From the NCBI GenBank assembly GCA_028703175.1, contig JAQVNJ010000064.1, positions 1 through 32,699 on the forward strand: DNA of 32,699 nucleotides, in the 5' to 3' direction. Below are positions 6,001 to 19,651 of the stretch, piece by piece (position 1 is the stretch's first letter; every line of letters starts with the position of its first letter). The position numbers were made by a program, and so were the translations under genes. Under the pieces are notes generated by a model, which had not been told where the DNA came from, ran no database searches, and worked only from the letters and a program-made list of their open reading frames with translations. This DNA comes from Thermoguttaceae bacterium (lineage in GTDB: Bacteria > Planctomycetota > Planctomycetia > Pirellulales > Thermoguttaceae).

Positions 6001-9000
6001 TCACCGCGCTGCTCGTGCCGGCGATCGTGTTGTTGATGATCCGGCCGAAGGGGACGATCGGATCGCCGATCCGGTTGCTGTCGCCGCTGAACAGGATGCC
6101 CGTCTGGCCGAAGCTGGCGACGACGTTGTTCATGATCACCACGCCCGGGGCCAGGTCGGAATTGTTGAGCACGGGGGTGTTGATCACGCTGCCGGGCTGG
6201 GGCACGTCCGTGCCGTCGCGGCCGCCGGGGCCGACGAGGATGCCGGTGCCCGCGACGTCGCGGATCGTATTGGCCTCGATGATCAGTTGATCCTGCTGGC
6301 GGACGACGTTCTCGTCGCCGCGGTAGCTGCCGACGTACTTGCCGTTGACGACGTGGCGGCCGTTGGCTGTCTTCGAGGGGATCAGCCGGTCGTTCGTGTC
6401 GAACTGCTCGAGGATGGCGATGTTGGCGGTTTGCGCCGTCACGTTGTCGGCGTATTCCGAGCCGCGGCGGATCTCCAACTGGTACGCGCCGGTGACTTGC
6501 TCGACCGGGTCGAACGGTTCCAGGCTCTGGCCGGGCAGCGTGAAATGCGCTGTCGCGCCGCTGGCCGCGGTGACCATCTCGCCCCGCTCGACAAAGCCGA
6601 TGATGATGTCGTCGATGTAGAAGCCTTCGTAGGCGTTGCTCTGCCCCCGCCGGGCGTTCGTCAAGTCGCCGTGGCCCTCGATCGAGGAATCGAGATCTGC
6701 ATAGGGGCTGTCCGTGCCGACGGCCGTGGGCATCCGGCCGGCCGTACTGAAATCGAAGCGGAGCTTCAGGTCGCTCTGCCCGGCGAAGTCTCCCAGGTCA
6801 ACCCGCACTTGCCGCCACTGGCCGGCGTCGAACAGTTCCTGGACCCGCTGCCGCCGGTGCGACGAGGCGTCGGACGAGGTCGACGGGAACCGAGGAAGCT
6901 CGTGCAGGCCGCCTCCCGAGTTGCTCGTCGAGACGGTCGAGTCGTTGGTCGCCAACAGATGCCAGCCGAGCGTTCCCCCGTAATTTCCCCAGACCCAGAT
7001 CCGCGCGCTGTCGAACATCGGGTCGCTCGAGGCCCACGCATCGCCTTCCGTGTCGAGGAAGTAGTTCACGTAGAGCGTCGGCTTGTCCGCGTAGACGCTC
7101 CCGCTGAGGCTGAACGTGTCCGTGACCAGGCTGCCGTAGGCCCCGCCGGGCAGATTGTAGTTGTTGCCGATCGCCGCGTTGTTCGTCAGCTCCTGGTGGA
7201 ATTGGCTCGTGCGGATGCCGTACTGGGCGTTGACGCCATAGCGGAGGTATTCGTCGTTGTTGGGGCTCGATTCCCACTGCTCCAATCCGAAGTAGAGGCT
7301 CGCTCCGCCGTCGTGCTGGTTGTCGTGGGTGACGTTCGCCGTGCCCTGGTCGAAGTTCGTGTTGCGGCTGTTGTTGAAAGCCGGGTTGACGCCGTGCCCC
7401 TGGTCGTTCCAGCGTCTCTCGGTGGGGTGCCAGAGATTGAAGTCCAGCGGCGAGAAGGCCAGCCCGGTGATTGCGTAGCCGGTCGCGTTGCTGGCCGAGC
7501 TATCGGTCACGCCGTCGTTGTCCGTGTCGAACACGACCTGCGGCGCCCCCGAGGTGCTGAATGCGTAAAGCCTCCGATCGCTGCCGCTGGCGAACAGCAT
7601 GTTCGCGTAGGCTCCGCCGTTGACGTTCTGCGGCCCGAAGCTCAGGCCGGTCATGCCGACGGGTAGCGGGGCGACCGATGTCCAACCGCTATGCGAACGG
7701 GAAGTCGACGAACCGCCGATCGTTGTCCGCCACAAGTTGCCGGCGGAGTCCACGGCGTAGAGCGTCGTGCCCGAGAAGGCCATTCCCGTGATCGTCGCGC
7801 CGCTGGGCAGCGGGCCGACCGGTTGCAGGCCGGTCGCTTCCGACGAAGTGTTTTCGTCGACCGCGGCTCCGCTCGAGACGTTGATCCGCCAGAGCGCGGG
7901 GCTCGCCTCGTTTCCAGTGGCTGCCTGGCCGTCTTCGTTGTATGGGTTGTTGTTGGCCGCGTAGAGCTCGAAGTTGCCAGTCGATGTCCGCATGAAGGCC
8001 AGCGCCTCGAACCTCTGGCCGATGTTCGGATCGGTCGGGATGTTGTCGTCTCCCCCGCCGCTCTGGGCCGCCGTCTCCGTGTCGATGATCCGCAGGTTGC
8101 CCGAGTTGGCGTTGTTGTTGCCGCGCGTCTGGCCGAACAGAACGCCGTCGGGCCGCATCGCCAGATCGCCGTAACCGTTGGTGCCGTTCAGACCGCCGAT
8201 ATTCGTCACCGCCTGCCCGGTGAAGGGGTTGACGGTCCTCAGCCGGTCGCCGCCGCCTTCGTCGGTGGAGACGAACAAAACGACGTCGCTCAGCGTGAAC
8301 GGCACGACGTGCGCGCTGAGCGCGGTGGCGTTGTTGATGTGCAGAATTCCGTCGGACTCGACAGGATCGATCTTCACCGAACCGCTGCCGTCGCCGGTCG
8401 TGAAGCCGCTGAACCCGATGTGGTCTTCGACGATCCGCTGGACCGAATCGATCGGTTCGAGGCGGATGTTGGGATTGGCGGCGCTGCCCGCGAAGGTCTG
8501 GTCGAGTTCCGCCGGGAGCGTCCGGTTCGACGACACCGCCACGTAGTAGACCTGGTCGGTGGCCGGCATGTGGACCGGGCCGATGAACGGGTCGAGCGTG
8601 CCGAAAGAGCCGCGGCTGAGGTCGTCGCGGTCGAGTCCCGCCCCGGGCTCCGTGCCCGGCTGGTCGTCCTCGATGTTCGAATCGCGGCCGACGAAGATCA
8701 GCCGCCCGGCCGAGTCGTAGACGGCCAGCACCGTGTCGGCCCGCGAGATGCCGTCGGCGTAGTCGATGTCGAACACGGTCGACCAGGTCTTGCCGCCGGC
8801 GTTCACCCCGCCGATCGCCTGAATCTGCTCGAGGTCGATCTCGAAGCGGTACCAGTCGACGTCGCCCGCGGCGGAGATGCTGCCGGACACGCCGATCGTG
8901 TTGATGTCGCTCTCCAGCAGGTTGCCCAAGTTCTGGGCGCCGGCCTGGGTGTTGTTGTCGGCGGTCGTCTCGCCCGCCTCGGCGGCGAGGATCGAGTGGG

Positions 9001-12000
9001 CCGGCTGGCCGTAGACCTCGATGCCGTTGGTGGCGTAGCGGATGTCGGCGTAGCGGATCGTCGAGCCCGGCTTCTCGTCGACCTGCCGCAAGCGCAACTG
9101 GAGCTGATAGTAGCCGGAGGTGCCGTTCTGGCTGGTGACGCGGACGAAGTAGGTGCCTTCGGCGCCCACCTCCCCGGGCAGAACCACGTACATGCCCGGA
9201 TCGCGCTGGTTGGTTGTGTAGAAGTCGCCGCCGAGGAAGACCTGCTGCGTGAGCGTGCCGGCCGCGCCGCCGAGGGTTGAATTGTCCGTCGAGGAGGCGA
9301 TCACCGTCCCGTCGAGCCGGACCAGCTCCACCTTGGCGTCCAGCGCGAAGCTGGTCCGGTCGATGTCGATCCAGACCTCGGTGCCCCCCTTGCCGACGAA
9401 GCTGTAGACGTCCTGGTCGGTCGGATCGTCGAGGCTGATGTAGCCGTGAATCTCGAAGCCGAGCCGCTGGTTCTCGTCGCTCCCCTTCTCGTCGTCTTCG
9501 TCGTCCGAGGCCACGTCGGGCGCAAGGTAGCCGAGAAACTGGGCGGTTCGCGGCAGGTCATTGATCGCCTCGCGGCCGGTGTAGGCCGGCTCGATCTCGT
9601 TGACGATCGCCACGTTCCGCGCGTTGGCGTAGCGGTCGATGAGGATGCTCCGCCAGTTGCCCGCCGCGGGGGCCGTGTCGCCCGGGTGGGTGTTGCCCTG
9701 CGGCTTGCCGTTGAGGTTGAATCCGGCCGCCGCCGTGTCGTCGTAGAGCGAAGTCAGTACGACCGGATAGTCGGGCGTGCCGAGAATGTGCAGCGTCCCG
9801 CCGATCCGGTCCTCGATATCGAGCGGTTCGCCGTTGGCGGTGAATCCGGCATTGGCGCCCTGGAGTTTGACGACCAGGCTGGCGTCTTGGCTGCTTTGCA
9901 GCCGCAAGCCACCGAAGGTGTGGAGGTTGTCGATAGAGATTTCATCGCGGAGGACGTGGACGATGTCGGTGTCGTCCCAGATCGACTCGGTGGTCAGCGT
10001 CGAGCCGCGAATCACCATGCCGTTGATCTGGTTGCCGCCGCCGCCCGGTGAGTTGTCGAGGACGTTGAGGCGGACCAGGGGGCCGCGGTTGTCGCCGAAT
10101 TGGGTGAACGCATCAACGGCGCCGGTGCTCCTCCCCGGATCGGTCAGGGCGGCGTAGTTCATCGAGTTGGCGTCGATCGTGATCGCGTCGCCCTGGTTGT
10201 CGATGATCTTGTTATTGACGATCACCGGCTGGGCGCCGCGGATGAAGATCGCCGCCCGCTCGTTGGTTCCCAGGCCGCCGCGGTTGCTCGTGCCGGCGTA
10301 GCCGTTGGCGTTCAGCTCGATCGTGCTGTTGGCGATCCGCACGTCGGCCTGGTGGATTTCGATGGCGTTGAACTTGTCGAATCCGCCGGCCAGGGCGGTT
10401 TCTCCGCCGGCGTAGGAGAGCTGCACGTAATCGAGGCTTCCCCTGCTCGCCGGGGCGAAGATCAGGCCGCCCCACTGGCCGGGGCTGGGCGGGTTGACGA
10501 GGCCGTCGTTGCTCGTGTCGAAGCCGCCGCCCATCCCGTAGGTGTCGTCCTTGAGCGAGGTGAACACGACCGGATTGCCCGGCAGGCCTTCGGCGATCAA
10601 CTGGCCGGCGATCTCCGTGTGGATCCGCGCTCCTTCGAGCTTGACGATCACACCCGGATCGATCCGCAGCCGGCCGTCGAGCCGCGCCGACGAGCCGAGC
10701 GGCCCGCCCGGCGTGCCGTGAATCAGCAGGTTCTCGGTGACGACGTGGACGATGTCCGTGTCGTCCCAGCGGCCGGGCACTTCGAGCTTCTCGGTGACGC
10801 TGCCGAACTGGGTGGGAATCCGCACGAACAGGCCGTTGATCGAGTTGTCGAGCACGGTGTTGCCGTGGATATCGGGGCCGATCCGCCCCTCGGTCTCCTC
10901 GAAGCTGGCCAGGTCGGCGGAGATCGCGCCCCCCGCGCCATGCCTGATCTCCGAGAAGGCGATCGTCGGCCGGGCGCCGACGAGGTGGATCGCAGTGTAG
11001 TTGTCTTCCAGGGTGCCGACGGTCACCTTGCCGCCGCCGTGCTGGATGTCGGCCCACGCGACCCAGTTGAGAAACACGCCGTCGGATTCGTAGTCGGAAT
11101 CGGCCCGGAAGACGAGGCCGCCCCAGTCGCCCCCCGACTGGCCGGAGCTCGACCCGTCGCTGTCGCCGCCGATCGAGTCGTCGCGGAACGAGCGGAAATG
11201 GACCTTTTCCCGCGGCGTGCCCAGCACCTGCATGGCGGCGCCGTCGAGCGAAATCCCCTCCGCCGACGAGCCGACCTCGATGTTCGCCCGCTGGAGTTTC
11301 AAGATCGCCCCGGCGTCGATCATCAGGGTCACGTCCTGGGGCACTTGCAGCAGCTTGCCGTCGGGCAGCTCGGCGCCGACGTTGTTGTAGCCGACCAGGT
11401 ACGGCGCGTTGTCGTCCGCGGTTTCGACCAGGCCATCAGCGCCGCCGTTGCCGACGACGCGCACCACGTCGCCCGGCTGGGCGTCTTCCAGTGCAGCGTC
11501 GATTTCGTTATAGGGCGCTTCGAGCGTACCGTCGCCGCCGGCGCTTCCGGTCGCCTTGTCGACAAACAGCGTGCTATTGCCCACGCGGAACCAGAAGTCG
11601 AATGTGCCGCCGGCCAGCCCGTCGGCGTCGCCGTCAAGCGCCGTGCCGGTGGCGTCGACCAGGGCCGCGGCCGGCTCGGCCTGGAAGGCCAGCTTCAGCT
11701 CGTACGCGCCGTTGGACCGGCCGCCGAACCCGGAATCCTCGATCGTCGGGTCGACCTGGCTGATCCCCGTGCTCATCACGCCGACATAGTAGACGCCGGG
11801 TGCGACCTCCAGCTCGATCAGGGAGTCGTTGCTGTAGTAGTCGTCGTTCTGGGCGACGATCTCGCGGACGAGCGTCCCCTCCACGTTGACCTCGCGGTAG
11901 AGGACTAATTGGGTGTCCAGGGTGCTCGTCGCGGCAAGCCGCTCGGCGACGGTTTCGAGCGTCAGCGTGCCCCACTCCTCGACCTCGAATTTGTAGAGAT

Positions 12001-15000
12001 CGATGTCGTCCCAGGCCGCCGGCCAGATGAAGTTCAGGTGCACGAGGTCGTTGTCGCCGGGATAGACGGCTTCGCCGTCGCCGTCGCCGTCGTCGCCCAT
12101 CGTCGCCGGGATGTCGTAGGCGTGGCCGAGCGAGAGGGCGTGGCCGATCTCGTGGATCGCCGTGTTGAACCACCCCCCGCCGTATTCGCTTAAGCCCCAG
12201 TCCATCGCGGCGTTGATAATCGCCAGCCCGGGGCCGCCCAGGCCGGCCACGGCACCGACGGGAATCTTGGGGTTGATGGCCCGCAGATCGCCGGTGATCA
12301 CCTGGATTCCGGAGCCGGCCGTCTCGACGAACTGGATGCCGATATAGTTGCCGTAGATCTCGAAGATTTCGCGAGTCCGCTGCTTCTGCTCCTCGGTGAT
12401 CTGGTTTGGCGTGGTCCACCCGTAGTTGGCCGCGAAGTTGTAGTACATCACGCCGCTGCCGAGATTGGGGCCGGTGGCCGAGAAGTGGGCTTCCGGGAGG
12501 ATGTGCCGGTGGCCCGGCTCGTCGAGTCCGCCCGGCTGGACCAGCACGCTTGCATCGCCCCGGTCGATGGTCTGGCCGGTGATCGCCTTTTCCGCCGCCC
12601 CCAGAATGCCCAGGTTGGTCGCCGTGTCGTAGCTCGAATTGGCGTTGGAGATCGCCAGGTCGCTGTCCAGCTTCACGTTGAGCTGGTAGGAGCCGCCGGC
12701 CGCGCTGGAGACGCGCAGGTAGTAGGTGCCGCCTTCGACCAGATCGCCCGGCCAGACAGCTCCACCTTCGTCGAGAATCTCGGCGGTGAATCCGGCGGTC
12801 ATGGTCACTTCCAGTGGGCCGCTCGCCCCGGCCTGGATGCGGTAGTAGTCCACTTCCGCCGCGCCGGCCGGCGCGTCGCCGATGAAGCCTTCCAGGCTGG
12901 CCGCGGTCGTGTTGCCATAGAGCGTCCCCACGTTGACCGCGGTGGCCAGCGTATCGTTCGATTCGTCGGAGGGCCCGATCTCCAGGTGGTAGGTGCTCGG
13001 GCTCAACGGGCCGCTGAAGAGCAATTGTGCCTTGTCGCCGACCGGGTCGTAAACCACCTTCGTGGGAATCAGAATCTCGCCGGTGGCCGTGTTCTGCAAA
13101 CGGTAGAAGGCCGGGTTGGTCGCCGAAGCGGGATCCAGATCGTCGTCGTTGAAGTAGACGTCGACCTTGTCGGTCGCCTGGTTGAGCGTCTTGATCGTCT
13201 GCACGTCGAAGAGGCTGGAGCCCTCGTTGAACGACGCCCAGCGCCCGCTGAGGTCGACGGCTCCTCCGGCAAGCTGCGAGGCGATCAGGTCGCCGTCGAG
13301 CAGCTCCGCGGCGATCGCCGCATTGATCGCATCATTGACCAGCGCGGCCACCGCCTCGGCGGTGGTCGTCCCTGCCGGGTCGAAGTTGACCGCCACGTTG
13401 CCGGCGGCAACCCGCGGATTGCCGAGCCCGTCGACGTCCGTGTAGTGGTTCAGCTCGAAGGTCACCGTGTTGAACCCGTCGCCGGCGGTGAACGTCTCGC
13501 CGTCGTCCGCCGCGGTGATCGCCGGCGTCGTCACCCGCAGCGGCCCGCGGTAGACCGGCTGGGGCACGACCGAAACGACCTGGGCGCCCAGGTCGAGTTC
13601 GAAGCGGATCGTCTGGTCGTTGCCATTGTTGAAGGGCACGCCGGCCGCGTTGGTCAGCGGGTCCTGGCCGGGCTTGCCCCGGATCAGAATCTGGTAACTG
13701 TCGTCGGGGAGCGTCTGGGCGAACCGCATCACCACCTGGTTGGCTTTGTCGCCGGGCAGCATCTGGTAGGTGATCGGCCCCTTCGTCCCGGTGAGCTGGA
13801 TCGCGCCAAAGGTCGAGTCGAGCAGATCCTGGTTTTCATTGAACTGGAAGAGGAGCTCCCGCGGGGCGACGTTCAGCGTCCCGCCGTCGACCAGTTCGCC
13901 GCCGGCGTTGGGGATGATCTTGACCAATTCCGGACCGACGACCTGGTTCTCGTTCGAGACCAGCAGGGAGAAAGCCTGGGTGACGGCGCCGGCGCCGCCG
14001 ACGTGGATCGTGTATTGCCCCGCGCCGGTCAGGTCGATCTGGACCTGCTCGACATTGTCGACATGGTTCAACTGGGTGCGGACGGCCGGCGCGGCGGGAT
14101 TGGCCGGATCGAGCGTCCAGGGGTAATACGTGTTGCCCCCCTCGTCGGTGATCCAGATGTCGAGGTCGTTGACCAGCGCCGCTGCGCTGTCGTCCAGCCC
14201 GCTGGCCGCCGTGCCGGCCGGGTCCGTCCAGACGAGCGTCGCCCGCAGCGGGCTGTTGCCGGCCGACGTGACGCTCCAGGTCAGCTCGGTTCCGTTGTAG
14301 GTCTGCTCGAAGACCTCCGCCACGCCGCTCCCCTCGGCCGCCTCGCTGATGAACTCGGCGGCCGACTTGGCGTTGATCAGCCCCCAGCCGTAGGTGTAGT
14401 CGGGGCCGAAGTTGCCGGCGTCGGACGCCGTGTGGATGATCAACCCCTTGAGCGTGGCGCTGTTGGGCGCGTAGCCGAGCGTCTCCTCGAAGTGCTGCTT
14501 GAGCAGGACCGCCGTACCGGCCGCGCTGGGCGCGGCCATCGAAGTCCCCTCGCTCGTCCGGTAATCGCTGTTGGAGGCGTCGCTCGTGGAAAACACCCCA
14601 ACGCCGTTGGCAACCACGTCGGGCTTGATCCGTCCGTCGTCCGTCGGGCCCCATCCCGAGAACGCGGACATCTGCACGTCGGAGGCCGCATAGGGATCGA
14701 TCGTCACGTCGTCGACGGCGCCGACCGTAAGGCTGTTCTTGGCCGTCTGCGCCGGCCGCAGCGAGTCGTAGCCCGAGCCTGCATTGCCATCGGCCGGCGG
14801 CGGCGGAAAGTCCGCCGCGTTGGCCAGATAGAACCCTGGCCGCGACCAGCCGGGCAGCCCCGGATCCGACGAAAAGAAAGCGGCGTAGACGCCGACGCCG
14901 GTCAGGTTCCTGTAGTGGTCGGTGCGATCGTTTCCCGCCGCCCAAACGCTCAACAACTCGGGACTGCCGCTGAGGACCTGGTCCAACTGGCGGGCTGTGT

Positions 15001-15760
15001 CTCGATACGAGCCGAACGCCGCGTCTTCGATCTGGCTCGTGGACATGTCGCCGTACCAGACGTCGATGTGGCCGGTCGGCGACGACGGATCGAGTTCCCA
15101 TTCCCAGCCGCAAACCACGCCGTAGGAATGGTTCGAGACGTCGATCAAGCCGGCGTCTCTGGTCATTTCCGTGTAGTCGGAATTCCAGTCATAAGACCGG
15201 ATCGCAACCCCGGTGGCCATCCCCTCCGCTGCGGCGTTCACACCGGCCGCGCCGATCGTCCCTCCGACGTGCGTCGCGTGCCAGTCGCTCGCCGCGCCGT
15301 CGATCACGCTCACCCGGCCGCCGAACTCCTGGTGCGTCGGCAGGACCGCGCCCGCGTCCCAGACGCCCACCGTGTAGCCGCTGCCGTCCAGGTCCAGCCC
15401 CAGCGACCCGCCCGCGGTGATGTATTCCGCGTTCGCCGTGTCGGCCGCGTGGCGATTCAGCGGCCGGATCGGCCGGAAGTCGTCCGGGCTGTCCGCCAGC
15501 GCGATCAACTGGATCTGGCCGGGCTCCGGCAGCGGGCGGACCGCGCTGCCGAAGATCGGTTGATCGTAGGCGACCAGCTCGTCGAGCGTCGATGGGGTGA
15601 TGCTCAGCAGCAGCCGGTGCTCGAATTGCTCCATGCGAAGCCCACGGGGCTTAAGCGACGAAGCGCCTTTGGCGCGTTTTCGCAGCGGGTTGCGTCCATC
15701 TCCAGCTTCTCGATTCTTCTGGCTGCCGGAGATACGTCGGAACGATGTCCAGAGCGACAT
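1..15760 (-). CDS. Giant multidomain putative secreted/surface protein (>5,250 aa inside window; 3' end/C-terminus beyond window start). Domains in order: S8 peptidase; P-domain-like segment; metzincin motif; PPC-like and beta-helix repeats; GEVED repeats.
   Basis: Minus-strand frame (codon low-ends = 2 mod 3) is exactly antisense to all six large + ORFs of the track. My translation of this frame gives high-GC3 codons and recognisable motifs at every sampled site. Start: ATG 15760-15758 (MSLWTSFRRISGSQKN...) with GAGGAGA 8 nt upstream. Alternative start: ATG 15634-15632 (MEQFEHRLLLSITPSTLDELVAYDQPIFGSAVRPLPEPGQIQ...). In-frame TGA at 15766-15764 closes the frame upstream. None of the 20 minus-strand ORFs reported in 1-15781 lies in this frame, so it has no stop down to position 1. 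The ORF therefore runs off the window and was not reported. Confidence 0.8.
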   Translation of the reverse strand, partial: MSLWTSFRRISGSQKNREAGDGRNPLRKRAKGASSLKPRGLRMEQFEHRLLLSITPSTLDELVAYDQPIFGSAVRPLPEPGQIQLIALADSPDDFRPIRPLNRHAADTANAEYITAGGSLGLDLDGSGYTVGVWDAGAVLPTHQEFGGRVSVIDGAASDWHATHVGGTIGAAGVNAAAEGMATGVAIRSYDWNSDYTEMTRDAGLIDVSNHSYGVVCGWEWELDPSSPTGHIDVWYGDMSTSQIEDAAFGSYRDTARQLDQVLSGSPELLSVWAAGNDRTDHYRNLTGVGVYAAFFSSDPGLPGWSRPGFYLANAADFPPPPADGNAGSGYDSLRPAQTAKNSLTVGAVDDVTIDPYAASDVQMSAFSGWGPTDDGRIKPDVVANGVGVFSTSDASNSDYRTSEGTSMAAPSAAGTAVLLKQHFEETLGYAPNSATLKGLIIHTASDAGNFGPDYTYGWGLINAKSAAEFISEAAEGSGVAEVFEQTYNGTELTWSVTSAGNSPLRATLVWTDPAGTAASGLDDSAAALVNDLDIWITDEGGNTYYPWTLDPANPAAPAVRTQLNHVDNVEQVQIDLTGAGQYTIHVGGAGAVTQAFSLLVSNENQVVGPELVKIIPNAGGELVDGGTLNVAPRELLFQFNENQDLLDSTFGAIQLTGTKGPITYQMLPGDKANQVVMRFAQTLPDDSYQILIRGKPGQDPLTNAAGVPFNNGNDQTIRFELDLGAQVVSVVPQPVYRGPLRVTTPAITAADDGETFTAGDGFNTVTFELNHYTDVDGLGNPRVAAGNVAVNFDPAGTTTAEAVAALVNDAINAAIAAELLDGDLIASQLAGGAVDLSGRWASFNEGSSLFDVQTIKTLNQATDKVDVYFNDDDLDPASATNPAFYRLQNTATGEILIPTKVVYDPVGDKAQLLFSGPLSPSTYHLEIGPSDESNDTLATAVNVGTLYGNTTAASLEGFIGDAPAGAAEVDYYRIQAGASGPLEVTMTAGFTAEILDEGGAVWPGDLVEGGTYYLRVSSAAGGSYQLNVKLDSDLAISNANSSYDTATNLGILGAAEKAITGQTIDRGDASVLVQPGGLDEPGHRHILPEAHFSATGPNLGSGVMYYNFAANYGWTTPNQITEEQKQRTREIFEIYGNYIGIQFVETAGSGIQVITGDLRAINPKIPVGAVAGLGGPGLAIINAAMDWGLSEYGGGWFNTAIHEIGHALSLGHAYDIPATMGDDGDGDGEAVYPGDNDLVHLNFIWPAAWDDIDLYKFEVEEWGTLTLETVAERLAATSTLDTQLVLYREVNVEGTLVREIVAQNDDYYSNDSLIELEVAPGVYYVGVMSTGISQVDPTIEDSGFGGRSNGAYELKLAFQAEPAAALVDATGTALDGDADGLAGGTFDFWFRVGNSTLFVDKATGSAGGDGTLEAPYNEIDAALEDAQPGDVVRVVGNGGADGLVETADDNAPYLVGYNNVGAELPDGKLLQVPQDVTLMIDAGAILKLQRANIEVGSSAEGISLDGAAMQVLGTPREKVHFRSFRDDSIGGDSDGSSSGQSGGDWGGLVFRADSDYESDGVFLNWVAWADIQHGGGKVTVGTLEDNYTAIHLVGARPTIAFSEIRHGAGGAISADLASFEETEGRIGPDIHGNTVLDNSINGLFVRIPTQFGSVTEKLEVPGRWDDTDIVHVVTENLLIHGTPGGPLGSSARLDGRLRIDPGVIVKLEGARIHTEIAGQLIAEGLPGNPVVFTSLKDDTYGMGGGFDTSNDGLVNPPSPGQWGGLIFAPASRGSLDYVQLSYAGGETALAGGFDKFNAIEIHQADVRIANSTIELNANGYAGTSNRGGLGTNERAAIFIRGAQPVIVNNKIIDNQGDAITIDANSMNYAALTDPGRSTGAVDAFTQFGDNRGPLVRLNVLDNSPGGGGNQINGMVIRGSTLTTESIWDDTDIVHVLRDEISIDNLHTFGGLRLQSSQDASLVVKLQGANAGFTANGEPLDIEDRIGGTLHILGTPDYPVVLTSLYDDTAAAGFNLNGKPQGNTHPGDTAPAAGNWRSILIDRYANARNVAIVNEIEPAYTGREAINDLPRTAQFLGYLAPDVASDDEDDEKGSDENQRLGFEIHGYISLDDPTDQDVYSFVGKGGTEVWIDIDRTSFALDAKVELVRLDGTVIASSTDNSTLGGAAGTLTQQVFLGGDFYTTNQRDPGMYVVLPGEVGAEGTYFVRVTSQNGTSGYYQLQLRLRQVDEKPGSTIRYADIRYATNGIEVYGQPAHSILAAEAGETTADNNTQAGAQNLGNLLESDINTIGVSGSISAAGDVDWYRFEIDLEQIQAIGGVNAGGKTWSTVFDIDYADGISRADTVLAVYDSAGRLIFVGRDSNIEDDQPGTEPGAGLDRDDLSRGSFGTLDPFIGPVHMPATDQVYYVAVSSNRTLPAELDQTFAGSAANPNIRLEPIDSVQRIVEDHIGFSGFTTGDGSGSVKIDPVESDGILHINNATALSAHVVPFTLSDVVLFVSTDEGGGDRLRTVNPFTGQAVTNIGGLNGTNGYGDLAMRPDGVLFGQTRGNNNANSGNLRIIDTETAAQSGGGDDNIPTDPNIGQRFEALAFMRTSTGNFELYAANNNPYNEDGQAATGNEASPALWRINVSSGAAVDENTSSEATGLQPVGPLPSGATITGMAFSGTTLYAVDSAGNLWRTTIGGSSTSRSHSGWTSVAPLPVGMTGLSFGPQNVNGGAYANMLFASGSDRRLYAFSTSGAPQVVFDTDNDGVTDSSASNATGYAITGLAFSPLDFNLWHPTERRWNDQGHGVNPAFNNSRNTNFDQGTANVTHDNQHDGGASLYFGLEQWESSPNNDEYLRYGVNAQYGIRTSQFHQELTNNAAIGNNYNLPGGAYGSLVTDTFSLSGSVYADKPTLYVNYFLDTEGDAWASSDPMFDSARIWVWGNYGGTLGWHLLATNDSTVSTSNSGGGLHELPRFPSTSSDASSHRRQRVQELFDAGQWRQVRVDLGDFAGQSDLKLRFDFSTAGRMPTAVGTDSPYADLDSSIEGHGDLTNARRGQSNAYEGFYIDDIIIGFVERGEMVTAASGATAHFTLPGQSLEPFDPVEQVTGAYQLEIRRGSEYADNVTAQTANIAILEQFDTNDRLIPSKTANGRHVVNGKYVGSYRGDENVVRQQDQLIIEANTIRDVAGTGILVGPGGRDGTDVPQPGSVINTPVLNNSDLAPGVVIMNNVVASFGQTGILFSGDSNRIGDPIVPFGRIINNTIAGTSSAVSDYGIRVTDYAGPTILNNIVTASGVGISIDATSLSRSVSNYNLFQDNTTNTSAGAAGTFDISLAAGQPLFVDRANYNFYLASGSRAIDSSIDSLADRSEMWPGIKEPLGIPPSPIITPARDRYAQLRDDDPNQAPPSGMGTNIFKDRGAIERADFTGPTARIVDPLDNTAPRDGTNPKVDGFYDYNAADHDVVVISQKTTDFAVQLYDAGGIGIDDLSVTLADRVTVRTNVVKVYRVLDLAELTAAPEADWPTLRLDADYLLDWDAANNILHVIPASGIWQPGYYYVIDVNNEQVRDLAGNPLQPNRSAPPFAGKTLFTVHLTGLDYGDLPDDPAGASSPDYATLLESGPVDGQGGPRHVVTGGVYLGLPPTVELDAAASADASGDYYDDGVTVSAALQMDSDQIDGSGVGTLAIAASTGGYLNAWIDFNGDGKFDQAVERIAEDLWLDAGENTLTVNVPGDAYVNPAAPGAADVYARGARFRFTSFAFAGVPWLGPATNPASGIMDRPAVGSEGIAYDGEVEDYMLDIVRYRQDWGDAPTDALSGRYLYPTLEAHDGATHYIHGPFLGSRIDAEMDGQPTLLADGDDQVGVDDEDGVEFVGVRLIPGDDASQVRVTLNLNGAAGAVLEGWIDFDGDGLWSDEYATSGVIDPAGEHDAFLLTAREPGQVGTRIGVVFNTGDALDVAYDAAARVLSIQYEPGVTTVAELVSAINAADLPVVADFEAAAENDGSGRSPSDSVRLAATWITSGGSETSQATSGVINPLGEDNAFEIIARDNTSGMNNKWITFYEVDNPGDPISVVWNGLDTLTVRYEPGVSTALAVIDAIELSGTPFTARLADPEPNDGSGALAGADAPDGLTISAIAAGPGAHASAELAGLVGEQNDFRVEATVPGEDGNFDLVFEHIATDDPGASWTPAVPGVSAAKVTVRLQPDVTTAAEIVQAINTLGQPVAASLLAAPNDGSGVFAKGVLARGPAYVTSGGDWAVPATIGPINPPGINNAFEVFATTNDPAHNGITVAFYEVRNAASVSWNGEDTLSVRFVPGVTTVQDIVNRINAAPGPLGAALTADVNDGSGVLGEDAVVFDGAEFLLDGAYERIFTNQVLEDGTHTYEFFVPESARPGASYARFRVSETGRSADGELLGPGGLATSGEVEDYAVIIHQMDYGDAPNSFGTVLERDIYGNVISDGARHVIAGPRLGELVDSDENGKPGPAANGDDNDGEADEDGVIFNELIVPGETVMISVTMGREGFDGRAQLAVDPSAGENDSFIVRAADYGDPLNGTLVSFLQVDGLPNDGSGTIAASDIGDGEEYPTDYGSSFAKATTGAIDPAGANNAFAIRAKESGGQYNGITVRFEHAAAESEPATASWNAASSTLLIVFKPGVATLNDLKTAVDAAGSPLEAAIIDDTNAPPVVSYDLDAPSLTVRYNPGATALEIVEAINASGPFVAELDLGGDPTNDGSADLTGTALDGLTGELAGGQWPGLLEAWVDFNANGVFEPGEQVFTHQPLRNDQLNTLSFSVPQDALPGDTYARFRITSDGLDASGQPLGPEGLALSGEVEDYLINVPPIDYGDAPEEYGTLRADDGARHVIAGPRLGTLVDHDLDGYPSDDALGDDRSGEDDEDGLDIAGAVLVPGEWIALDAMVTLDDPSGPAYLKGWIDYDGNGLWDTSETVRWGDGAVVSGDDFVDVSLIPPNADGTRTVHFQMPEDAAPGMTFLRFRISTDPGLSFDGLALDGEVEDYVGYIHMVDHGDAPGAGTAPHVFTQAPAVLGEPLVPYGPWMGTNPTDHDLPVDPSVVFVDDQTGVDDEDGVILFDVLGQPTTQLVPGEWATIQVTVNAGSPESGYLYAWIDYNGDGLFESQPKIETQLGVDHDGNEQIADGLAIAAGETATIDFFVPHEGIDPGAINARFRLIGKTEHDLRVAADPDWTLGSTGLAYSGEVEDYVYTILEVDYGDAANGPTIWADDGARHVIAGPWMSTGDTLPDWEYDGQEDDNAA
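161..178 (-). repeat. GEVED-type repeat #5 (TGLAYSGEVEDYVYTILEVDYGDAANGPTIWADDGARHVIAGPWMSTGDTLPDWEYDGQEDDNAA…)
   Basis: rc-translation of 1-200 was read directly. The protein continues past position 1. Confidence 0.75.
770..787 (-). repeat. GEVED-type repeat #4 (GEVEDY)
   Basis: + strand gtagtcttccacctcgcc, same frame (codon low-end 770 = 2 mod 3). Confidence 0.7.
1310..1327 (-). repeat. GEVED-type repeat #3 (PGDTYARFRITS … ALSGEVEDYLINVPPIDYGDAPEEY)
   Basis: + strand gtagtcttccacctcgcc. The ARFR motif (rc of about 1385-1420) and DYGDAP motif (rc of about 1275-1300) were both verified by translation. Confidence 0.75.
2531..2548 (-). repeat. GEVED-type repeat #2 (…LATSGEVEDYAVI, followed by MDYGDAPN)
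   Basis: + strand gtagtcctcgacctcgcc; rc gives GEVEDY. DYGDAP motif lies about 30 nt 3' of it on the minus strand. Confidence 0.7.
4427..4444 (-). repeat. GEVED-type repeat #1 in window (…IAYDGEVEDYM)
   Basis: + strand gtagtcctcgacctcgcc; rc gives GEVEDY in the giant-gene frame. Confidence 0.7.
5941..6060 (-). other. Parallel beta-helix (PbH1-like) repeat segment, example 2
   Basis: rc-translation gives IVPFGRIINNTIAGTSSAVSDYGIRVTDYAGPTILNNIV. Confidence 0.4.
8843..8863 (-). other. PPC-like (pre-peptidase C-terminal-type) beta-sandwich motif DVDWYRF
   Basis: rc of 8843-8863 (gaagcggtaccagtcgacgtc) gives DVDWYRF, followed by EIDLEQI. A second module nearby ends ...TSGYYQLQLRLRQVDEKPGS (rc of 9061-9120), typical of the PPC terminal strand Y-x-L-x-L. 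Confidence 0.45.
10166..10230 (-). other. Parallel beta-helix (PbH1-like) repeat segment, example 1
   Basis: rc-translation gives QPVIVNNKIIDNQGDAITIDANS. This is an N-N-x-I-x-x-N / I-T-I-D-type rung, as in pectate-lyase-fold beta-helices. Confidence 0.4.
12122..12154 (-). other. Metzincin zinc-binding motif HEIGHALSLGH (HExxHxxGxxH), serralysin/matrixin-like, within giant protein
   Basis: rc-translation of 12061-12240 gives GGPGLAIINAAMDWGLSEYGGGWFNTAIHEIGHALSLGHAYDIPATMGDDGDGDGEAVYPGDNDLVHLNFIWPAAWDDI. The Met in IPATM is a possible Met-turn. Frame is continuous with the rest of the giant ORF. Confidence 0.7.
14211..14255 (-). other. Subtilase C-terminal P-domain-like segment (motif PLRATLVWTDPAGT)
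   Basis: rc-translation of 14211-14255 gives SPLRATLVWTDPAGT. An L-x-W-T-D-P motif typically follows S8 catalytic domains, in kexin/P-domain-like beta-barrels. Confidence 0.4.
14480..15400 (-). other. Subtilisin-like serine peptidase (S8) catalytic domain of giant protein
   Basis: Translated directly. Asp motif GYTVGVWDAGAVLPTHQEFGGR (Asp codon = rc of 15356-15358). His motif DWHATHVGGTIGAAG (about 15265-15295). Oxyanion Asn in VSNHSYG (about 15135). Ser motif TSEGTSMAAPSAAGTAVLLKQHF (Ser codon = rc of 14540-14542). Order D-H-N-S and spacing are typical of subtilases. Confidence 0.8.
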
Positions 15761-15768
15761 GGATCATC

Positions 15769-15775
15769 TCTCCTC
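15769..15775 (-). promoter_or_regulatory. Shine-Dalgarno-like GAGGAGA, 8-nt spacer before ATG 15760 of the giant gene
   Basis: Minus strand reads ctaattGAGGAGAgatgatccATG. Confidence 0.45.
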
Positions 15776-16641
15776 AATTAGATTGGGCGTCGTGGTTCTT
15801 CGCTGAGATGGCGATTACCGAGGCAGACCTCGCGGGGGTCGCAAAACAGAGAATTCGCATCGTTCCGAAACGCGGGGCAATTGCCTTGGAAGGGGACGTG
15901 GAGCGATTATGCGGGTCCTGTTGCCGATTCTGTTTGGCGCGGATGCAAATGTCAAGTTTTTTTCGTAAAGAAGGTGGAACTCGCCAGCCGTCGCGGCGGC
16001 CGCCGGCGCCGCGACCGCCGGGTGAATGCCGTGGGCGGGCCGGCGCGATTCCGGCCGGCCTGCGCCGGCGACCGGCCGAGCTGGGCCGCCAGGGCGAATT
16101 CCGGTTCCTCGCCGATCGGTCGCCCCCGGCCTAGGCGGGTTCGCTGCCAGGAAACACGGCAACAGAGAACACGAAAAATAAGGGGCAGAGTTGCCACCCA
16201 GTCGGCGTTCTCTGGCCCCGCTATGGTGCGGTCGGAGCGCCGATCTCCAGGGCGGCCGGCGGTTGGGCGGAATTCTGGGAGGACCGCAAAAAAGATGTGC
16301 GAAGCGGGCTTCCCCCGCTGACCGCCCCCCCCATAATGGGTGTGAAGAACTTGCAGTGCGGCAGGCGCGCGGAGCGCCTGCTCGTTCGCGCTCGGCGGCT
16401 TCTCGCCATCTTGGAGCCAAGGCTTCGAGGTCCCGGGGTCGGCCGAAGGGGGGCTGCGGCGGGGGCGGTTGTCCGCCCGGTCTGGAACCGATGCGGCCGG
16501 GAGATTTTGCCGTTGGTTGCCGTGTGCGCCCGAGGAGCAGGCTCTTTTTTAGGAATATTGCCGACGGGCACGCCGCTTGCTCCCAACAAATGCCCGACAT
16601 GCCGGCATCCAGCCGGGAAGGCAGAAACGGGAGAGGAACCG

Positions 16642-19015: not shown

Positions 19016-19651
19016 ATGTTCACACTCTTTCTGTTCTGTGCGGTGTTAGGCGGCGTGGTTCTGGTCTGCCAGATCGTGATGACGATCGCCGGCGCCGGCC
19101 TTGGCGGGGGCGACGTGGACATCCCCGGCGACGCGGGAGGATTTGGCGACGTAGATTTGGATGTCGGCCACGGCGACGTCCATGGCGGCGACCTGAACTC
19201 GGAGCACGCCGACTCGACGGCCGGGTTCCGCGTGATTTCCCTGCGAACCGTGATTGCCGGAGTTGCTTTCTTCGGTCTCGGCGGCCTGGCGGCGGACAGC
19301 ACCGGAGCCGCCCCGGTCGTCGTCTGGGCGATCGCGCTGGCCGCCGGGGCCGCCGCGATGTACGGCGTCTACTGGATGTTTCGTACCCTGTATTCCCTGA
19401 AATCCGACGGCACCGTCCAGATTGCCAACGCGATCGGCCAACACGGCACCGTTTACCTGCGGATTCCCGGCAACGACTCGGGGGCGGGCAAGATTCAGAT
19501 GTGCCTCCAGTCGCGCACGGTGGAGTACCTGGCGACGACGTCCGGCGAGGGATTGCCCACGGGAACCAGAATCGTCGTTGTCGACGTCGTCACACCGACG
19601 ACCGTTCAAGTTGAACCGGTCCTTGAACCCGAAAGGAACGAGCATGTTTAG
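19016..19651 (+). CDS. NfeD-like membrane protein (N-terminal TM region, C-terminal OB-fold), partner of flotillin
   Basis: ATG 19016 (MFTLFLFCAVLGGVVLVCQIVMTIAG...) with AAGGAG 9 nt upstream. C-terminal GTVQIANAIGQHGTVYLRIP...GTRIVVVDVV resembles the NfeD OB-fold. It overlaps the next gene by 8 nt. Confidence 0.65.
   Translation: MFTLFLFCAVLGGVVLVCQIVMTIAGAGLGGGDVDIPGDAGGFGDVDLDVGHGDVHGGDLNSEHADSTAGFRVISLRTVIAGVAFFGLGGLAADSTGAAPVVVWAIALAAGAAAMYGVYWMFRTLYSLKSDGTVQIANAIGQHGTVYLRIPGNDSGAGKIQMCLQSRTVEYLATTSGEGLPTGTRIVVVDVVTPTTVQVEPVLEPERNEHV

What the first reader, a model, noticed from the sequence alone, without database searches (positions are those of the whole stretch)
12000..15760. Two unrelated protease catalytic domains (subtilisin-like S8 and metzincin) in one giant GEVED-repeat polypeptide
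The S8 triad motifs (VWDAG, HATHVGG, SNHSYG, GTSMAAP) are at 15360-14530. A canonical metzincin HEIGHALSLGH motif with a possible Met-turn (IPATM) is at 12154-12100. Both are in the same uninterrupted frame, about 800 codons apart. They are followed by PPC-like and beta-helix modules and at least five GEVED repeats. A serine protease plus a zinc metalloprotease, both N-terminal to a >3,500-aa adhesin-like scaffold, is an unusual architecture. It suggests a processing or cleaving surface machine, or a polyprotein that releases its own passenger. I cannot tell from the sequence alone whether this exact combination has been described.
Basis: partly seen in the sequence, partly recalled or inferred. 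Interest (0 to 1): 0.85.

Follow-up and report, generated by a model that had tools for sequence, protein, structure and literature searches.

The report
Giant planctomycete surface protein, two proteases
One uninterrupted gene of more than 5,250 codons in a planctomycete encodes both a subtilisin-type serine protease and a matrixin-like zinc protease ahead of a long adhesin-like stalk; the pairing is real and uncommon, but it recurs in related bacteria and is built from known parts.

Summary
The minus strand carries one open frame from 15760 to the window's left edge (5,253 codons, truncated, GC3 0.90).

The subtilase (S8) is solid. Pfam gives E 1e-32, the Asp/His/Asn/Ser catalytic residues are intact, and the AlphaFold model (pLDDT 89) matches the KP-43 and SubHal subtilases.

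The zinc protease is real but divergent. It scores below Pfam's matrixin cut-off. It matches the MMP-12 catalytic domain (E 5.5e-6 alone, 1e-9 as a family profile), and its lower-confidence model matches MMP folds. The three His, the Glu and the Met-turn Met are present. The metzincin Gly is Ser.

The matrixin-like module defines a family of at least 742 protein clusters, nearly all giant proteins; the named relatives are Planctomycetota, mostly Pirellulales. About 10 of the best 150 also carry an N-terminal subtilase, of two different subtypes. GenBank already holds a 60%-identical protein, labelled only "S8 family serine peptidase".

The N-terminus fits the planctomycete cell-surface export motif.

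Best reading: a surface or secreted dual-protease adhesin. Self-processing is possible but untested.

Verdict: new variant of a known kind, modest interest.

The parts
2..15760 (-). Giant gene, 5' part only (5,253 codons; the C-terminus lies beyond the window's left end). Residue numbers 'g' count from Met at 15760.
   Evidence: Single open frame with GC3 0.90. It is 59.5% identical over g1-4880 to P0128 = NLS92909.1, 5,713 aa.
15602..15760 (-). N-terminal leader g1-53, ending ...KPRGLRMEQFEHRLLLS. It fits the planctomycete cell-surface export motif RRLxxExLExRxLLA.
   Evidence: The leader is conserved in all orthologue-like sequences and in paralogues that lack the subtilase. The motif and its link to surface proteins and the longest proteins come from PMC8567305. 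The Pfam PF07595 model itself gave no hit.
14351..15385 (-). Subtilase (S8) catalytic domain, g126-470. Catalytic residues: Asp135 (15358-15356), His161 (15280-15278), oxyanion Asn277 (14932-14930), Ser407 (14542-14540).
   Evidence: Pfam PF00082 at 113.8-119.1 bits against a cut-off of 21.8. His, Asn and Ser are invariant in 38 relatives; the Asp column has D in 28 and E in 8. AlphaFold model pLDDT 89.3, pTM 0.90. Foldseek matches SubHal 5fax (E 8.5e-30) and KP-43 1wmd (E 3.7e-29).
13946..14350 (-). Beta-jelly-roll domain attached to the subtilase, g471-605. It is of the KP-43 C-terminal type and plays the same role as a P-domain.
   Evidence: The phmmer alignment to 5fax and 1wmd runs through g589. 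The model is confident and the structural match covers both domains, TMt 0.76.
12644..13945 (-). Linker of Ig-like and PPC-like beta-sandwich modules, g606-1039.
   Evidence: Conserved with P0128, P0002, P0004, L001 and L003. Pfam gives only a faint PPC trace. The domain assignment is by inspection of the sequence.
12485..12535 (-). Near-invariant pre-catalytic motif PG..DEPGHR.I..E.H, g1076-1092; function unknown.
   Evidence: P, G, H and R are each found in 134-146 of 155 family modules. The AlphaFold model has pLDDT below 50 here. No PDB sequence match.
12011..12463 (-). Matrixin-like metzincin catalytic module, g1100-1250. Zinc motif HEIGHALSLGH at 12154-12122 (His1203, Glu1204, His1207, Ser1210 in place of Gly, His1213). 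Met-turn Met1221 at 12100-12098.
   Evidence: phmmer against the PDB: MMP-12 at E 5.5e-6, with the Met aligned to the Met-turn Met. Family profile: E 1e-9, extending through the last helix. Pfam PF00413 is below threshold here (19.5 against 24) but above it in relatives (P0137 28.6 bits; precomputed hits). AlphaFold model pLDDT 59.8; Foldseek matches MMP-8, -13 and -12 at E 4e-5 to 3e-4, TMt about 0.6.
11777..12004 (-). PPC (pre-peptidase C-terminal / collagen-binding-domain-like) module, g1253-1328.
   Evidence: Pfam PF04151 at 34.8 bits against a cut-off of 25.9. Foldseek matches the collagenase PPC domain 5sv5 (E 6.8e-6) and the ColG collagen-binding domain 1nqd (E 9.8e-6).
9611..11560 (-). 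First beta-helix-like region, g1401-2050. It follows the matrixin-PPC pair in several family members examined.
   Evidence: Only a weak Pfam Beta_helix hit, E 0.006. It is 68% identical to P0128. The same segment follows the module in P0290, P0002 and P0004.
5858..6301 (-). Second beta-helix region, g3154-3301.
   Evidence: Pfam PF13229 at 24.9 bits against a cut-off of 25.9, E 1.8e-5; borderline.
2..5020 (-). C-terminal stalk, g3581-5253: five GEVED domains interspersed with repeated modules of about 110 residues.
   Evidence: Pfam PF20009 in five stretches, E 1.7e-57. Motif positions. GEVED was defined as a stalk domain of CshA-type fibrillar adhesins (PMC10952558).

Best explanation
This is the N-terminal 5,253 residues of a giant, exported, cell-surface or secreted modular protein of a planctomycete (the closest relatives are Planctomycetota MAGs, several of them Pirellulales). 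It belongs to a large family of giant proteins defined by a matrixin-like zinc-protease module set among PPC-type beta-sandwich modules and followed by a beta-helix region.

In this protein, and in a minority of relatives, a complete KP-43-type subtilase with its jelly-roll domain has been added between the export leader and the family core. The far end of a long stalk (Ig-like, PPC, beta-helix and GEVED modules) therefore carries two endopeptidases of different catalytic class.

The most likely function is proteolysis of external protein substrates close to the cell. This would serve nutrient acquisition or remodelling of a colonised surface. The PPC (collagen-binding-like) and stalk modules would provide substrate or surface binding and reach, and the two proteases would provide complementary specificity.

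Shown here: the single ORF, both folds, the intact catalytic and zinc-binding residues, and recurrence of the architecture in independent genomes.

Inferred: export, surface location, enzymatic activity and substrate.
For: - Single ORF with strong coding signal.
- Subtilase: Pfam E 1e-32; catalytic residues conserved in relatives; high-confidence model matching KP-43 and SubHal across catalytic and jelly-roll domains.
- Matrixin-like module: MMP-12 match at E 5.5e-6, or 1e-9 as a profile; the model resembles MMP-8, -13 and -12. His, Glu, His and His of the zinc motif are present in 142-147 of 155 family modules, which argues for selection on catalysis.
- Family size and giant lengths: 742 clusters, mostly 2,000-7,400 aa.
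- Other members carry other enzyme and binding modules. P0137 has PhoPQ_related hydrolase, dockerin, GEVED and beta-helix. This fits a modular extracellular scaffold.
- The same subtilase-to-matrixin order is seen in P0128 (59.5% identity over 4,880 residues), P0002, P0004 and MAG L001; L003 has the same order with a different subtilase type.
- The leader fits the planctomycete surface export motif, which is found on 8 of the 10 longest proteins of T. immobilis (PMC8567305).
- GEVED is an adhesin stalk domain (PMC10952558).
- Giant 'Matrixin'-annotated genes are listed for the Pirellulaceae species Stieleria varia (PMC7717043).
Against: - No activity, localisation or expression data exist.
- The matrixin HMM is below Pfam's cut-off for this protein (19.5 against 24 bits). 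The near-invariant metzincin Gly is Ser here (Gly in 144 of 155 relatives), which could impair the zinc site.
- The model of that module is only moderately confident: pLDDT 59.8, and below 50 around the Met-turn.
- Pfam's PF07595 export-motif model did not hit the leader, and there is no classical hydrophobic signal peptide.
- The C-terminus, and therefore any anchor, lies outside the window.
- The protease modules are no more conserved than the stalk between this protein and P0128: 67% and 57% against 62% overall.
- No conserved neighbouring genes hint at substrate or secretion route.
Confidence: 0.55

Rival explanations
1. Self-processing polyprotein. One or both proteases act mainly in cis or on sister molecules, cutting the megadalton precursor into separately functioning pieces or releasing it from the cell. 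Their main substrate would be the giant protein itself. This does not exclude the best explanation.
For: - Subtilases commonly autoprocess. N-terminal S8 and C39 domains of giant Omnitrophota proteins were proposed to cleave those proteins into smaller polypeptides (bioRxiv 10.1101/2023.11.21.568195).
- The subtilase always sits directly behind the leader.
- In positional orthologues a different subtilase type (kexin-like, a processing-protease class) occupies the same slot. This suggests the slot needs 'a subtilase' rather than a particular specificity.
Against: - About 93% of the best 150 family representatives have no subtilase at all yet share the same body. Processing by an in-built subtilase therefore cannot be required for the family.
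- No conserved cleavage motif was identified.
- No I9-type propeptide was detected.
Confidence: 0.2
2. Only the subtilase is catalytic. In this lineage the matrixin-like module has decayed into a non-catalytic binding or structural module (a pseudo-protease) because the metzincin Gly is lost.
For: - Ser replaces the Gly of HExxHxxGxxH here and in the nearest relatives P0125, P0121 and P0124. L001 has Asn and P0129 has Glu at this position, whereas 144 of 155 family modules keep Gly.
- The Pfam score is below the cut-off.
- In P0121 and P0124 the Met-turn Met is also replaced by Gln.
Against: - All three zinc-binding His, the catalytic Glu and the Met are retained in this protein. A decaying module would be expected to lose them first.
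- Gln at the Met position occurs in 37 of 155 otherwise intact modules, so the family tolerates variation around the motif.
Confidence: 0.15
3. Artefact. The two protease domains are joined by assembly chimerism or by a sequencing error that hides a stop or frameshift, and are really two genes.
For: Giant repetitive genes are prone to misassembly. The related MAG locus L001 has a run of N and a duplicated stretch exactly at the zinc motif.
Against: - There is no stop in 15.7 kb, and GC3 is 0.90.
- The same order and spacing of domains occurs in independent assemblies from different sources: P0128 (NCBI), P0002 and P0004 (ENA), L001 and L003.
- The 800-residue linker between the domains is itself conserved.
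Confidence: 0.03

Closest known systems
KP-43 and SubHal subtilases of Bacillus (PDB 1wmd, 5fax; MEROPS family S8)
   Same: Subtilisin fold with an Asp-His-Ser triad, followed directly by a C-terminal beta-jelly-roll domain. These are the best sequence matches (E 1e-26) and structure matches (E about 1e-29, TMt 0.76).
   Different: They are free secreted enzymes of about 43 kDa. Here the unit is the head of a protein of more than 5,250 residues. It has an insertion of about 45 residues after the oxyanion Asn and shows no detectable I9 propeptide.
Matrixins (MEROPS M10A, Pfam PF00413), e.g. the human MMP-12 catalytic domain; bacterial MMP-like enzymes such as karilysin
   Same: - HExxH plus a third His six residues on, and a Met eight residues after it that aligns to the MMP Met-turn.
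- A small residue (Ala; Ser/Thr/Ala in the family) follows the third His. From my own knowledge, matrixins have Ser there.
- The final helix motif D..H..L aligns with the MMP 'DDI.GIQ.LY' helix.
- The overall fold is similar.
- Bacterial MMPs are known to be diverse (PMC12587646).
   Different: - Below the Pfam cut-off for this protein, and Gly is replaced by Ser in the motif.
- No cysteine-switch prodomain; the whole protein has a single Cys, at g217.
- The loop that holds the structural zinc and calcium in MMPs is short and lacks His.
- It has its own invariant upstream PG..DEPGHR motif.
- It sits among PPC-type modules inside a giant protein.
Giant 'matrixin' cell-surface proteins of Pirellulales (e.g. 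Stieleria varia Pla52n_17500, 6,858 aa; family found)
   Same: Same family core: export leader, beta-sandwich modules, matrixin-like module, PPC and beta-helix, followed by variable adhesin-like modules. Giant size. Planctomycete origin.
   Different: Most members (about 140 of the best 150) have no subtilase. This protein has a complete KP-43-type subtilase inserted behind the leader.
Giant Omnitrophota proteins with N-terminal S8 or C39 peptidase domains (bioRxiv 10.1101/2023.11.21.568195)
   Same: A subtilase domain sits near the N-terminus of a giant multi-enzyme protein in a PVC-group bacterium. Autoproteolytic processing has been proposed.
   Different: Different phylum, much larger proteins with transmembrane segments and glycan-acting enzymes. 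No matrixin module is reported.
KLIKK proteases of Tannerella forsythia (karilysin, mirolase and others)
   Same: One bacterium deploys an MMP-like metalloprotease and a subtilisin-like serine protease together at its surface (PMC4404884, PMC9890683; abstracts).
   Different: There they are separate polypeptides sharing a C-terminal secretion domain. Here both are in one chain.
CshA-type fibrillar adhesins with GEVED stalk domains
   Same: Repeated GEVED domains serve as stalk elements of long surface proteins built by domain shuffling (PMC10952558).
   Different: Those are Gram-positive adhesins with a non-enzymatic binding head. Here the head is enzymatic.

Membership tests
Subtilases (Pfam PF00082, MEROPS S8) | Family HMM above the curated threshold | tested here: met
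   113.8-119.1 bits against a cut-off of 21.8.
Subtilases (Pfam PF00082, MEROPS S8) | Catalytic triad in the order Asp-His-Ser, plus the oxyanion Asn, in their conserved motifs | tested here: met
   Asp135 (VWDAG), His161 (HATHVGG), Asn277 (WAAGND), Ser407 (GTSMAAP). His, Asn and Ser are invariant in 38 relatives; the Asp column has D in 28 and E in 8.
Subtilases (Pfam PF00082, MEROPS S8) | Subtilisin alpha/beta fold | tested here: met
   AlphaFold pLDDT 89.3, pTM 0.90. Foldseek 5fax E 8.5e-30, 1wmd E 3.7e-29.
Subtilases (Pfam PF00082, MEROPS S8) | N-terminal I9-type propeptide (usual, but not defining) | tested here: not met
   No Pfam hit upstream of the catalytic domain. Only about 70 residues separate the leader from the Asp motif.
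Subtilases (Pfam PF00082, MEROPS S8) | Serine-dependent proteolytic activity | not testable with these tools
   Needs an enzyme assay.
Metzincins / matrixins (MEROPS M10A, Pfam PF00413) | Family HMM above the curated threshold | tested here: not met
   19.5 bits against a cut-off of 24 for this protein. Relatives pass: P0137 scores 28.6 bits, and precomputed PF00413 hits appear on P0004 and many others. A profile of the module family hits the MMP-12 catalytic domain at E 1e-9.
Metzincins / matrixins (MEROPS M10A, Pfam PF00413) | Zinc ligands and general base: HExxH with a third His six residues after the second | tested here: met
   His1203, Glu1204, His1207 and His1213. Each is found in 142-147 of 155 family modules.
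Metzincins / matrixins (MEROPS M10A, Pfam PF00413) | Gly at position 8 of HExxHxxGxxH | tested here: not met
   Ser1210 in this protein; Gly in 144 of 155 relatives. For this reason I call it matrixin-like rather than a canonical member.
Metzincins / matrixins (MEROPS M10A, Pfam PF00413) | Met-turn beneath the zinc site | tested here: inconclusive
   HMMER aligns Met1221 to the MMP-12 Met-turn Met. The family has Met in 94 and Gln in 37 of 155 modules. The model is low-confidence in this loop, pLDDT below 50.
Metzincins / matrixins (MEROPS M10A, Pfam PF00413) | Metzincin catalytic fold (five-stranded sheet and three helices) | tested here: met
   Predicted element order is strand, helix, three strands, active-site helix, C-terminal helix. 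Foldseek matches MMP-8, -13 and -12 at E 4e-5 to 3e-4, TMt about 0.6, 156-163 aligned columns. The model has only moderate confidence (pLDDT 59.8).
Metzincins / matrixins (MEROPS M10A, Pfam PF00413) | Cysteine-switch prodomain (PRCGxPD) of animal MMPs | tested here: not met
   The protein has one Cys, at g217 inside the subtilase. The pre-catalytic segment has no PDB match.
PPC domain (Pfam PF04151) | Family HMM above threshold and matching fold | tested here: met
   34.8 bits against a cut-off of 25.9 at g1253-1328. Foldseek 5sv5 and ColG collagen-binding domain at E about 1e-5. Other PPC-like modules are below threshold.
GEVED domain (Pfam PF20009) | Family HMM above threshold, with the GEVED motif | tested here: met
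   Five stretches, 192.6 bits. Five GEVED motifs.
Planctomycete cell-surface export motif (Pfam PF07595; RRLxxExLExRxLLA) | Match to the family HMM or consensus at the N-terminus | tested here: inconclusive
   No Pfam hit at E <= 1. By eye, RGLRMEQFEHRLLLS fits the published consensus (PMC8567305), and it is conserved in the relatives aligned. A loose leader pattern ending in the motif's last residues was found in 101 of 150 family representatives.

The most novel reading that the evidence does not exclude
The two proteases form a built-in activation cascade. On this reading, the invariant PG..DEPGHR motif keeps the zinc site latent through its His. The motif lies about 22 residues before the first strand of the matrixin-like module. 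From my memory of MMP sequences, that is the same place as the cysteine switch of animal MMPs. The N-terminal subtilase, whether KP-43-type or kexin-type, would then cut this segment to switch the metalloprotease on and release modules from the megadalton scaffold. That would be a 'histidine-switch' zymogen and a self-dismantling enzyme-delivery protein. Nothing here tests it. The motif region is modelled with low confidence, and most family members have the motif but no subtilase.
Probability: 0.08. Interest if true: 0.65.

Novelty: new variant of a known kind. Interest (0 to 1): 0.35.

Why it matters
If both modules are active, this is a natural single-chain fusion of a serine and a zinc endopeptidase on an adhesin-like stalk. 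It is a compact example of how planctomycetes assemble surface 'toolkits' by domain shuffling. It could also be a source of new proteases.

More broadly, the matrixin-like module defines a family of hundreds of giant proteins, apparently mostly planctomycete. Current annotation labels them only by one domain. This protein's closest GenBank relative is called just 'S8 family serine peptidase'. I found no study of the family itself; one species description lists a giant 'Matrixin'-annotated gene (PMC7717043).

The swap between two subtilase subtypes in positional orthologues gives a clean case for studying module exchange in giant genes.

None of this overturns current understanding.

Tried and rejected
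- **Conserved gene neighbourhood.** The proteins of window genes 15.8-24.6 kb have no match in any of the 27 related loci. L001 and L003 share an upstream oxidoreductase gene with each other but not with this window. There is no operon-level clue.
- **Flanking genes.** They are ordinary housekeeping genes: ribBA, flotillin-like Band 7, TPR, PIN-TRAM, HIT, zinc-type alcohol dehydrogenase and DUF4405. No tRNA genes.
- **Pfam on the 80-residue leader.** No PF07595 hit.
- **NCBIfam.** Only sub-threshold subtilase subfamily hits; nothing for the zinc module.
- **Word-indexed homology search with the zinc module.** It returned only 4 hits with the single sequence and 25 with the profile, mostly short fragments. 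The exhaustive search was needed to see the family.
- **PDB sequence searches.** g2451-3100 gave no hits. The pre-catalytic segment g1070-1150 gave only chance hits. There is therefore no sequence support for a third enzyme module or for similarity to MMP prodomains.
- **Weak InhA-like_MAM and Flagellin_IN Pfam hits**. I treated these as noise or repeats. There is only one HExxH in the whole protein.
- **Literature.** No paper holds both Peptidase_S8 and Peptidase_M10. The recent bacterial MMP survey does not mention planctomycetes.
- **Self-BLAST of the C-terminal repeats.** Not pursued.
- **Whether the protease modules are more conserved than the stalk.** They are not, so this gives no argument either way.
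Full report
**What is in the window.** The minus strand holds a single open frame from 15763 down to base 2 (5,254 codons) that runs off the window's left end. The first possible start is ATG 15760, and homologues begin with the same MSLW... residues. Third-position GC is 0.90 on this frame. The long + strand ORFs that a mechanical ORF list shows over the same DNA are antisense shadows in 67% GC sequence. I number residues 'g' from the Met at 15760. The rest of the window (15.8-32.7 kb) holds ordinary housekeeping genes: DUF4405, a Band 7/flotillin-like protein, TPR, ribBA, PIN-TRAM, HIT, a metallo-beta-lactamase-fold protein and a zinc-type alcohol dehydrogenase. There are no tRNAs.

**Checking the observation.**
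- VWDAG 15364-15350
- HATHVGG 15280-15260
- SNHSYG 15136-15119
- GTSMAAP 14548-14528
- HEIGHALSLGH 12154-12122
- IPATM 12112-12098
- five GEVED motifs between 4444 and 164

The catalytic Ser and the zinc motif are 796 codons apart in one frame, with no stop between them.

**The subtilase.**
- Pfam Peptidase_S8 scores 114-119 bits against a cut-off of 21.8.
- The closest solved relatives by sequence are the Bacillus subtilases KP-43 (1wmd) and SubHal (5fax). The alignment continues through their C-terminal beta-jelly-roll domain.
- An AlphaFold model of g56-610 built on 38 sequences is confident (pLDDT 89.3, pTM 0.90). It matches 5fax and 1wmd over both domains (E about 1e-29, TMt 0.76).
- The catalytic residues are Asp135, His161 and Ser407, with oxyanion Asn277 in WAAGND.
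- His, Asn and Ser are invariant in 38 relatives. The Asp column has D in 28 and E in 8.
- No I9-type propeptide was detected.

**The zinc protease.** This domain is real but divergent.
- Pfam Peptidase_M10 scores only 19.5 bits against a cut-off of 24.
- phmmer against PDB sequences aligns about 106 residues to the MMP-12 catalytic domain at E 5.5e-6. The alignment includes the HExxH helix, and the Met of IPATM falls on the MMP Met-turn Met.
- An exhaustive HMMER search of 1.84 billion cluster representatives found 742 clusters with this module at E <= 1e-3, and 243 at E <= 1e-30. Almost all are giant proteins of 2,000-7,400 residues.
- In 155 aligned modules the consensus is WF..AMHEIGH.LGLGH[S/T/A]YDLP..MG......GEPVFPGD.DIVH. 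The three His and the Glu are present in 142-147 of 155. The Met is Met in 94 and Gln in 37.
- A profile of 16 modules hits MMP-12 at E 1e-9 and extends through the last helix.
- Relatives pass Pfam's matrixin threshold: P0137 scores 28.6 bits, and many have precomputed PF00413 hits.
- An AlphaFold model of g1036-1365 is only moderately confident (pLDDT 59.8, and below 50 around the Met-turn). It has the expected order of strands and helices. Foldseek finds MMP-8, -13 and -12 catalytic domains (E 4e-5 to 3e-4, TMt about 0.6) for one part, and collagenase PPC/collagen-binding domains (E about 1e-5) for the other.
- One feature is not canonical. The eighth residue of the motif is Ser1210, where 144 of 155 relatives and all classical metzincins have Gly. 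The nearest relatives share this: P0125, P0121 and P0124 have Ser, L001 has Asn and P0129 has Glu.
- There is no cysteine-switch prodomain. The whole protein has a single Cys.

I therefore call it a matrixin-like metzincin module rather than a canonical M10A member.

**The rest of the protein.**
- Pfam supports a PPC domain right after the zinc module, at 34.8 bits.
- It supports five GEVED domains (E 1.7e-57).
- Two beta-helix-like regions are borderline.
- GEVED was defined as a stalk domain of CshA-type fibrillar adhesins (PMC10952558).
- The N-terminus ends in RGLRMEQFEHRLLLS. This fits the published planctomycete motif RRLxxExLExRxLLA, which is thought to be an export signal for cell-surface proteins and is carried by 8 of the 10 longest proteins of Tuwongella immobilis (PMC8567305). 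The Pfam model for that motif did not hit, so this is a consensus-level match only.
- The leader is conserved across orthologues and paralogues.

- The subtilase head is extremely common on long adhesin-like tails: 6,274 hits, with Calx-beta, RTX, CARDB, FG-GAP, GEVED or type IX secretion tails among the best 120. It occurs across Planctomycetota, Cyanobacteria and other phyla. Some carry another peptidase class, such as C25 in P0046 and C1 in P0063.
- Among the 150 best representatives of the matrixin-module family, three have the same KP-43-type subtilase upstream (P0125, P0128, P0236).
- Seven more (P0126, P0127, P0129, P0173, P0221, P0239, P0259) have a different subtilase in the same slot. 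For P0126, Pfam shows it to be kexin-like: Peptidase_S8 at E 4.9e-26 plus the proprotein-convertase P domain at E 7e-10.
- That is roughly 7% in total. Most of the others with a recognisable leader have only about 235-500 residues between leader and zinc module.
- P0128 is GenBank NLS92909.1, annotated 'S8 family serine peptidase, partial [Planctomycetaceae bacterium]'. It is 59.5% identical to this protein over g1-4880.
- P0002 and P0004 share the architecture at about 45% identity.
- In species-representative genomes the full subtilase-to-matrixin region is found in a Planctomycetaceae MAG (L001, 62%) and a Thermoguttaceae MAG (L003, kexin type). Two contigs of a Planctomycetota MAG (L002 at 88%, L004 at 52%) end before the zinc module. 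A series of mostly Pirellulaceae MAGs has the body without the subtilase.
- The window's own genome is not among those representatives.

**A by-product.** L001 and L003 share the gene immediately upstream of the giant gene, a Gfo/Idh/MocA-like oxidoreductase at 87-89% identity. They also share the leader and body of the giant protein. Yet they carry different subtilase subtypes. This looks like a module swap within positional orthologues. It argues that the slot behind the leader is a site of exchange and that a subtilase there is repeatedly retained.

**Mechanism.**
- Shown: one ORF, two protease folds, intact catalytic and zinc-binding residues, and recurrence in independent assemblies.
- Inferred: export by the planctomycete surface motif; a distal enzymatic head on a long stalk; proteolysis of external protein substrates, with PPC (collagen-binding-like) and stalk modules providing binding and reach.
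- Other family members carry other enzyme and binding modules, such as a PhoPQ-related hydrolase and dockerin in P0137. This fits a modular extracellular scaffold.
- Self-processing is a reasonable rival or additional role. It was proposed earlier for giant Omnitrophota proteins with N-terminal S8 domains. However, about 93% of family representatives lack any subtilase, so it cannot be a general requirement of the family.
- A pseudo-protease reading of the zinc module rests on the Gly-to-Ser change. It is weakened by retention of all four catalytic residues and the Met.
- An assembly artefact is very unlikely, given the conserved architecture elsewhere.

**Literature.**
- Giant genes are a known feature of planctomycetes (PMC5177795).
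- A giant 'Matrixin' of 6,858 residues is listed for Stieleria varia (PMC7717043).
- Bacterial MMP-like enzymes are known to be diverse (PMC12587646), although that survey does not mention planctomycetes.
- I found no paper that describes a subtilase-plus-matrixin polypeptide or discusses this family of giant proteins.

**Verdict.** The protein is a new variant of a known kind: a giant planctomycete surface protein of the matrixin-module family that has acquired a KP-43-type subtilase head. Interest is modest (0.35). The open items worth a specialist's attention are:
- whether the Ser-containing zinc site is active;
- the meaning of the invariant PG..DEPGHR motif just before the catalytic domain;
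- the repeated acquisition of subtilase heads.

Noticed in passing
window 12485-12535 (g1076-1092); also g1238 and g1241 at 12038-12049: The motif PG..DEPGHR.I..E.H is almost invariant and lies about 22 residues before the first strand of the matrixin-like module. An equally conserved D..H sits in the last helix. From my memory of MMP sequences, the motif occupies the position that the cysteine switch holds in animal MMPs. It could be a latency or extra metal-binding element. The model is low-confidence there and the segment has no PDB match.
   Followed up: partly
L001 3973-18204 and L003 10001-23867; upstream genes at about L001 1-1200 and L003 7897-8935: These two MAG loci share the upstream oxidoreductase gene (87-89% identity) and the leader and body of the giant protein. 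L001 has the KP-43-type subtilase, whereas L003 has a kexin-like subtilase with a P domain. This is an apparent module swap inside positional orthologues.
   Followed up: partly
L001 about 7560-7660: A run of N interrupts the related gene exactly at the zinc motif. A degenerate copy (ALHEVGDALSMGEW) lies before the gap and HEIGHALNLSH after it, with Asn in place of the metzincin Gly. This is probably an assembly or scaffolding problem.
   Followed up: no
alignment A4, column of g135 (window 15356-15358): At the catalytic Asp position of the subtilase, 8 of 38 relatives have Glu instead of Asp (e.g. P0029, VGIWEPTEPG). The window protein has Asp. It is unclear whether this is a real Glu-His-Ser variant or an alignment shift.
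   Followed up: no
P0029 (1,230 aa), HEAGHLMGLGH at residue 807: Another relative with the KP-43-type subtilase carries a different-looking HExxHxxGxxH region. It aligns poorly with the other modules and was not among the best 150 representatives of the matrixin-module family. This may be an independent subtilase-plus-metzincin fusion.
   Followed up: no
window 83-7666, 7691-9280, 10100-11908, 12485-15781 (+ strand): Four very long + strand ORFs (up to 2,527 codons) lie antisense to the giant gene. They are shadows of the high-GC3 minus frame, not genes, but automated callers could mis-annotate them.
   Followed up: yes
window 19644-21242 (+): A Band 7/flotillin-like gene has a long Glu/Ala/Lys-rich coiled-coil segment. 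This explains the sharp AT-skew peak (0.38) at 20-21 kb. The listed TTG start at 19422 is probably too far upstream; a Met followed by a hydrophobic segment lies at about 19644.
   Followed up: partly
window 2-15760 (whole protein): There is only one cysteine (g217) in 5,253 residues.
   Followed up: no
window about 1660-4060 (g3900-4700): Modules of about 110 residues repeat between the GEVED domains (e.g. ...VRYEPGVSTALAVIDAI...). They give a weak Flagellin_IN Pfam hit and recur many times in relatives L001, L003 and P0127. The module type is unidentified.
   Followed up: no
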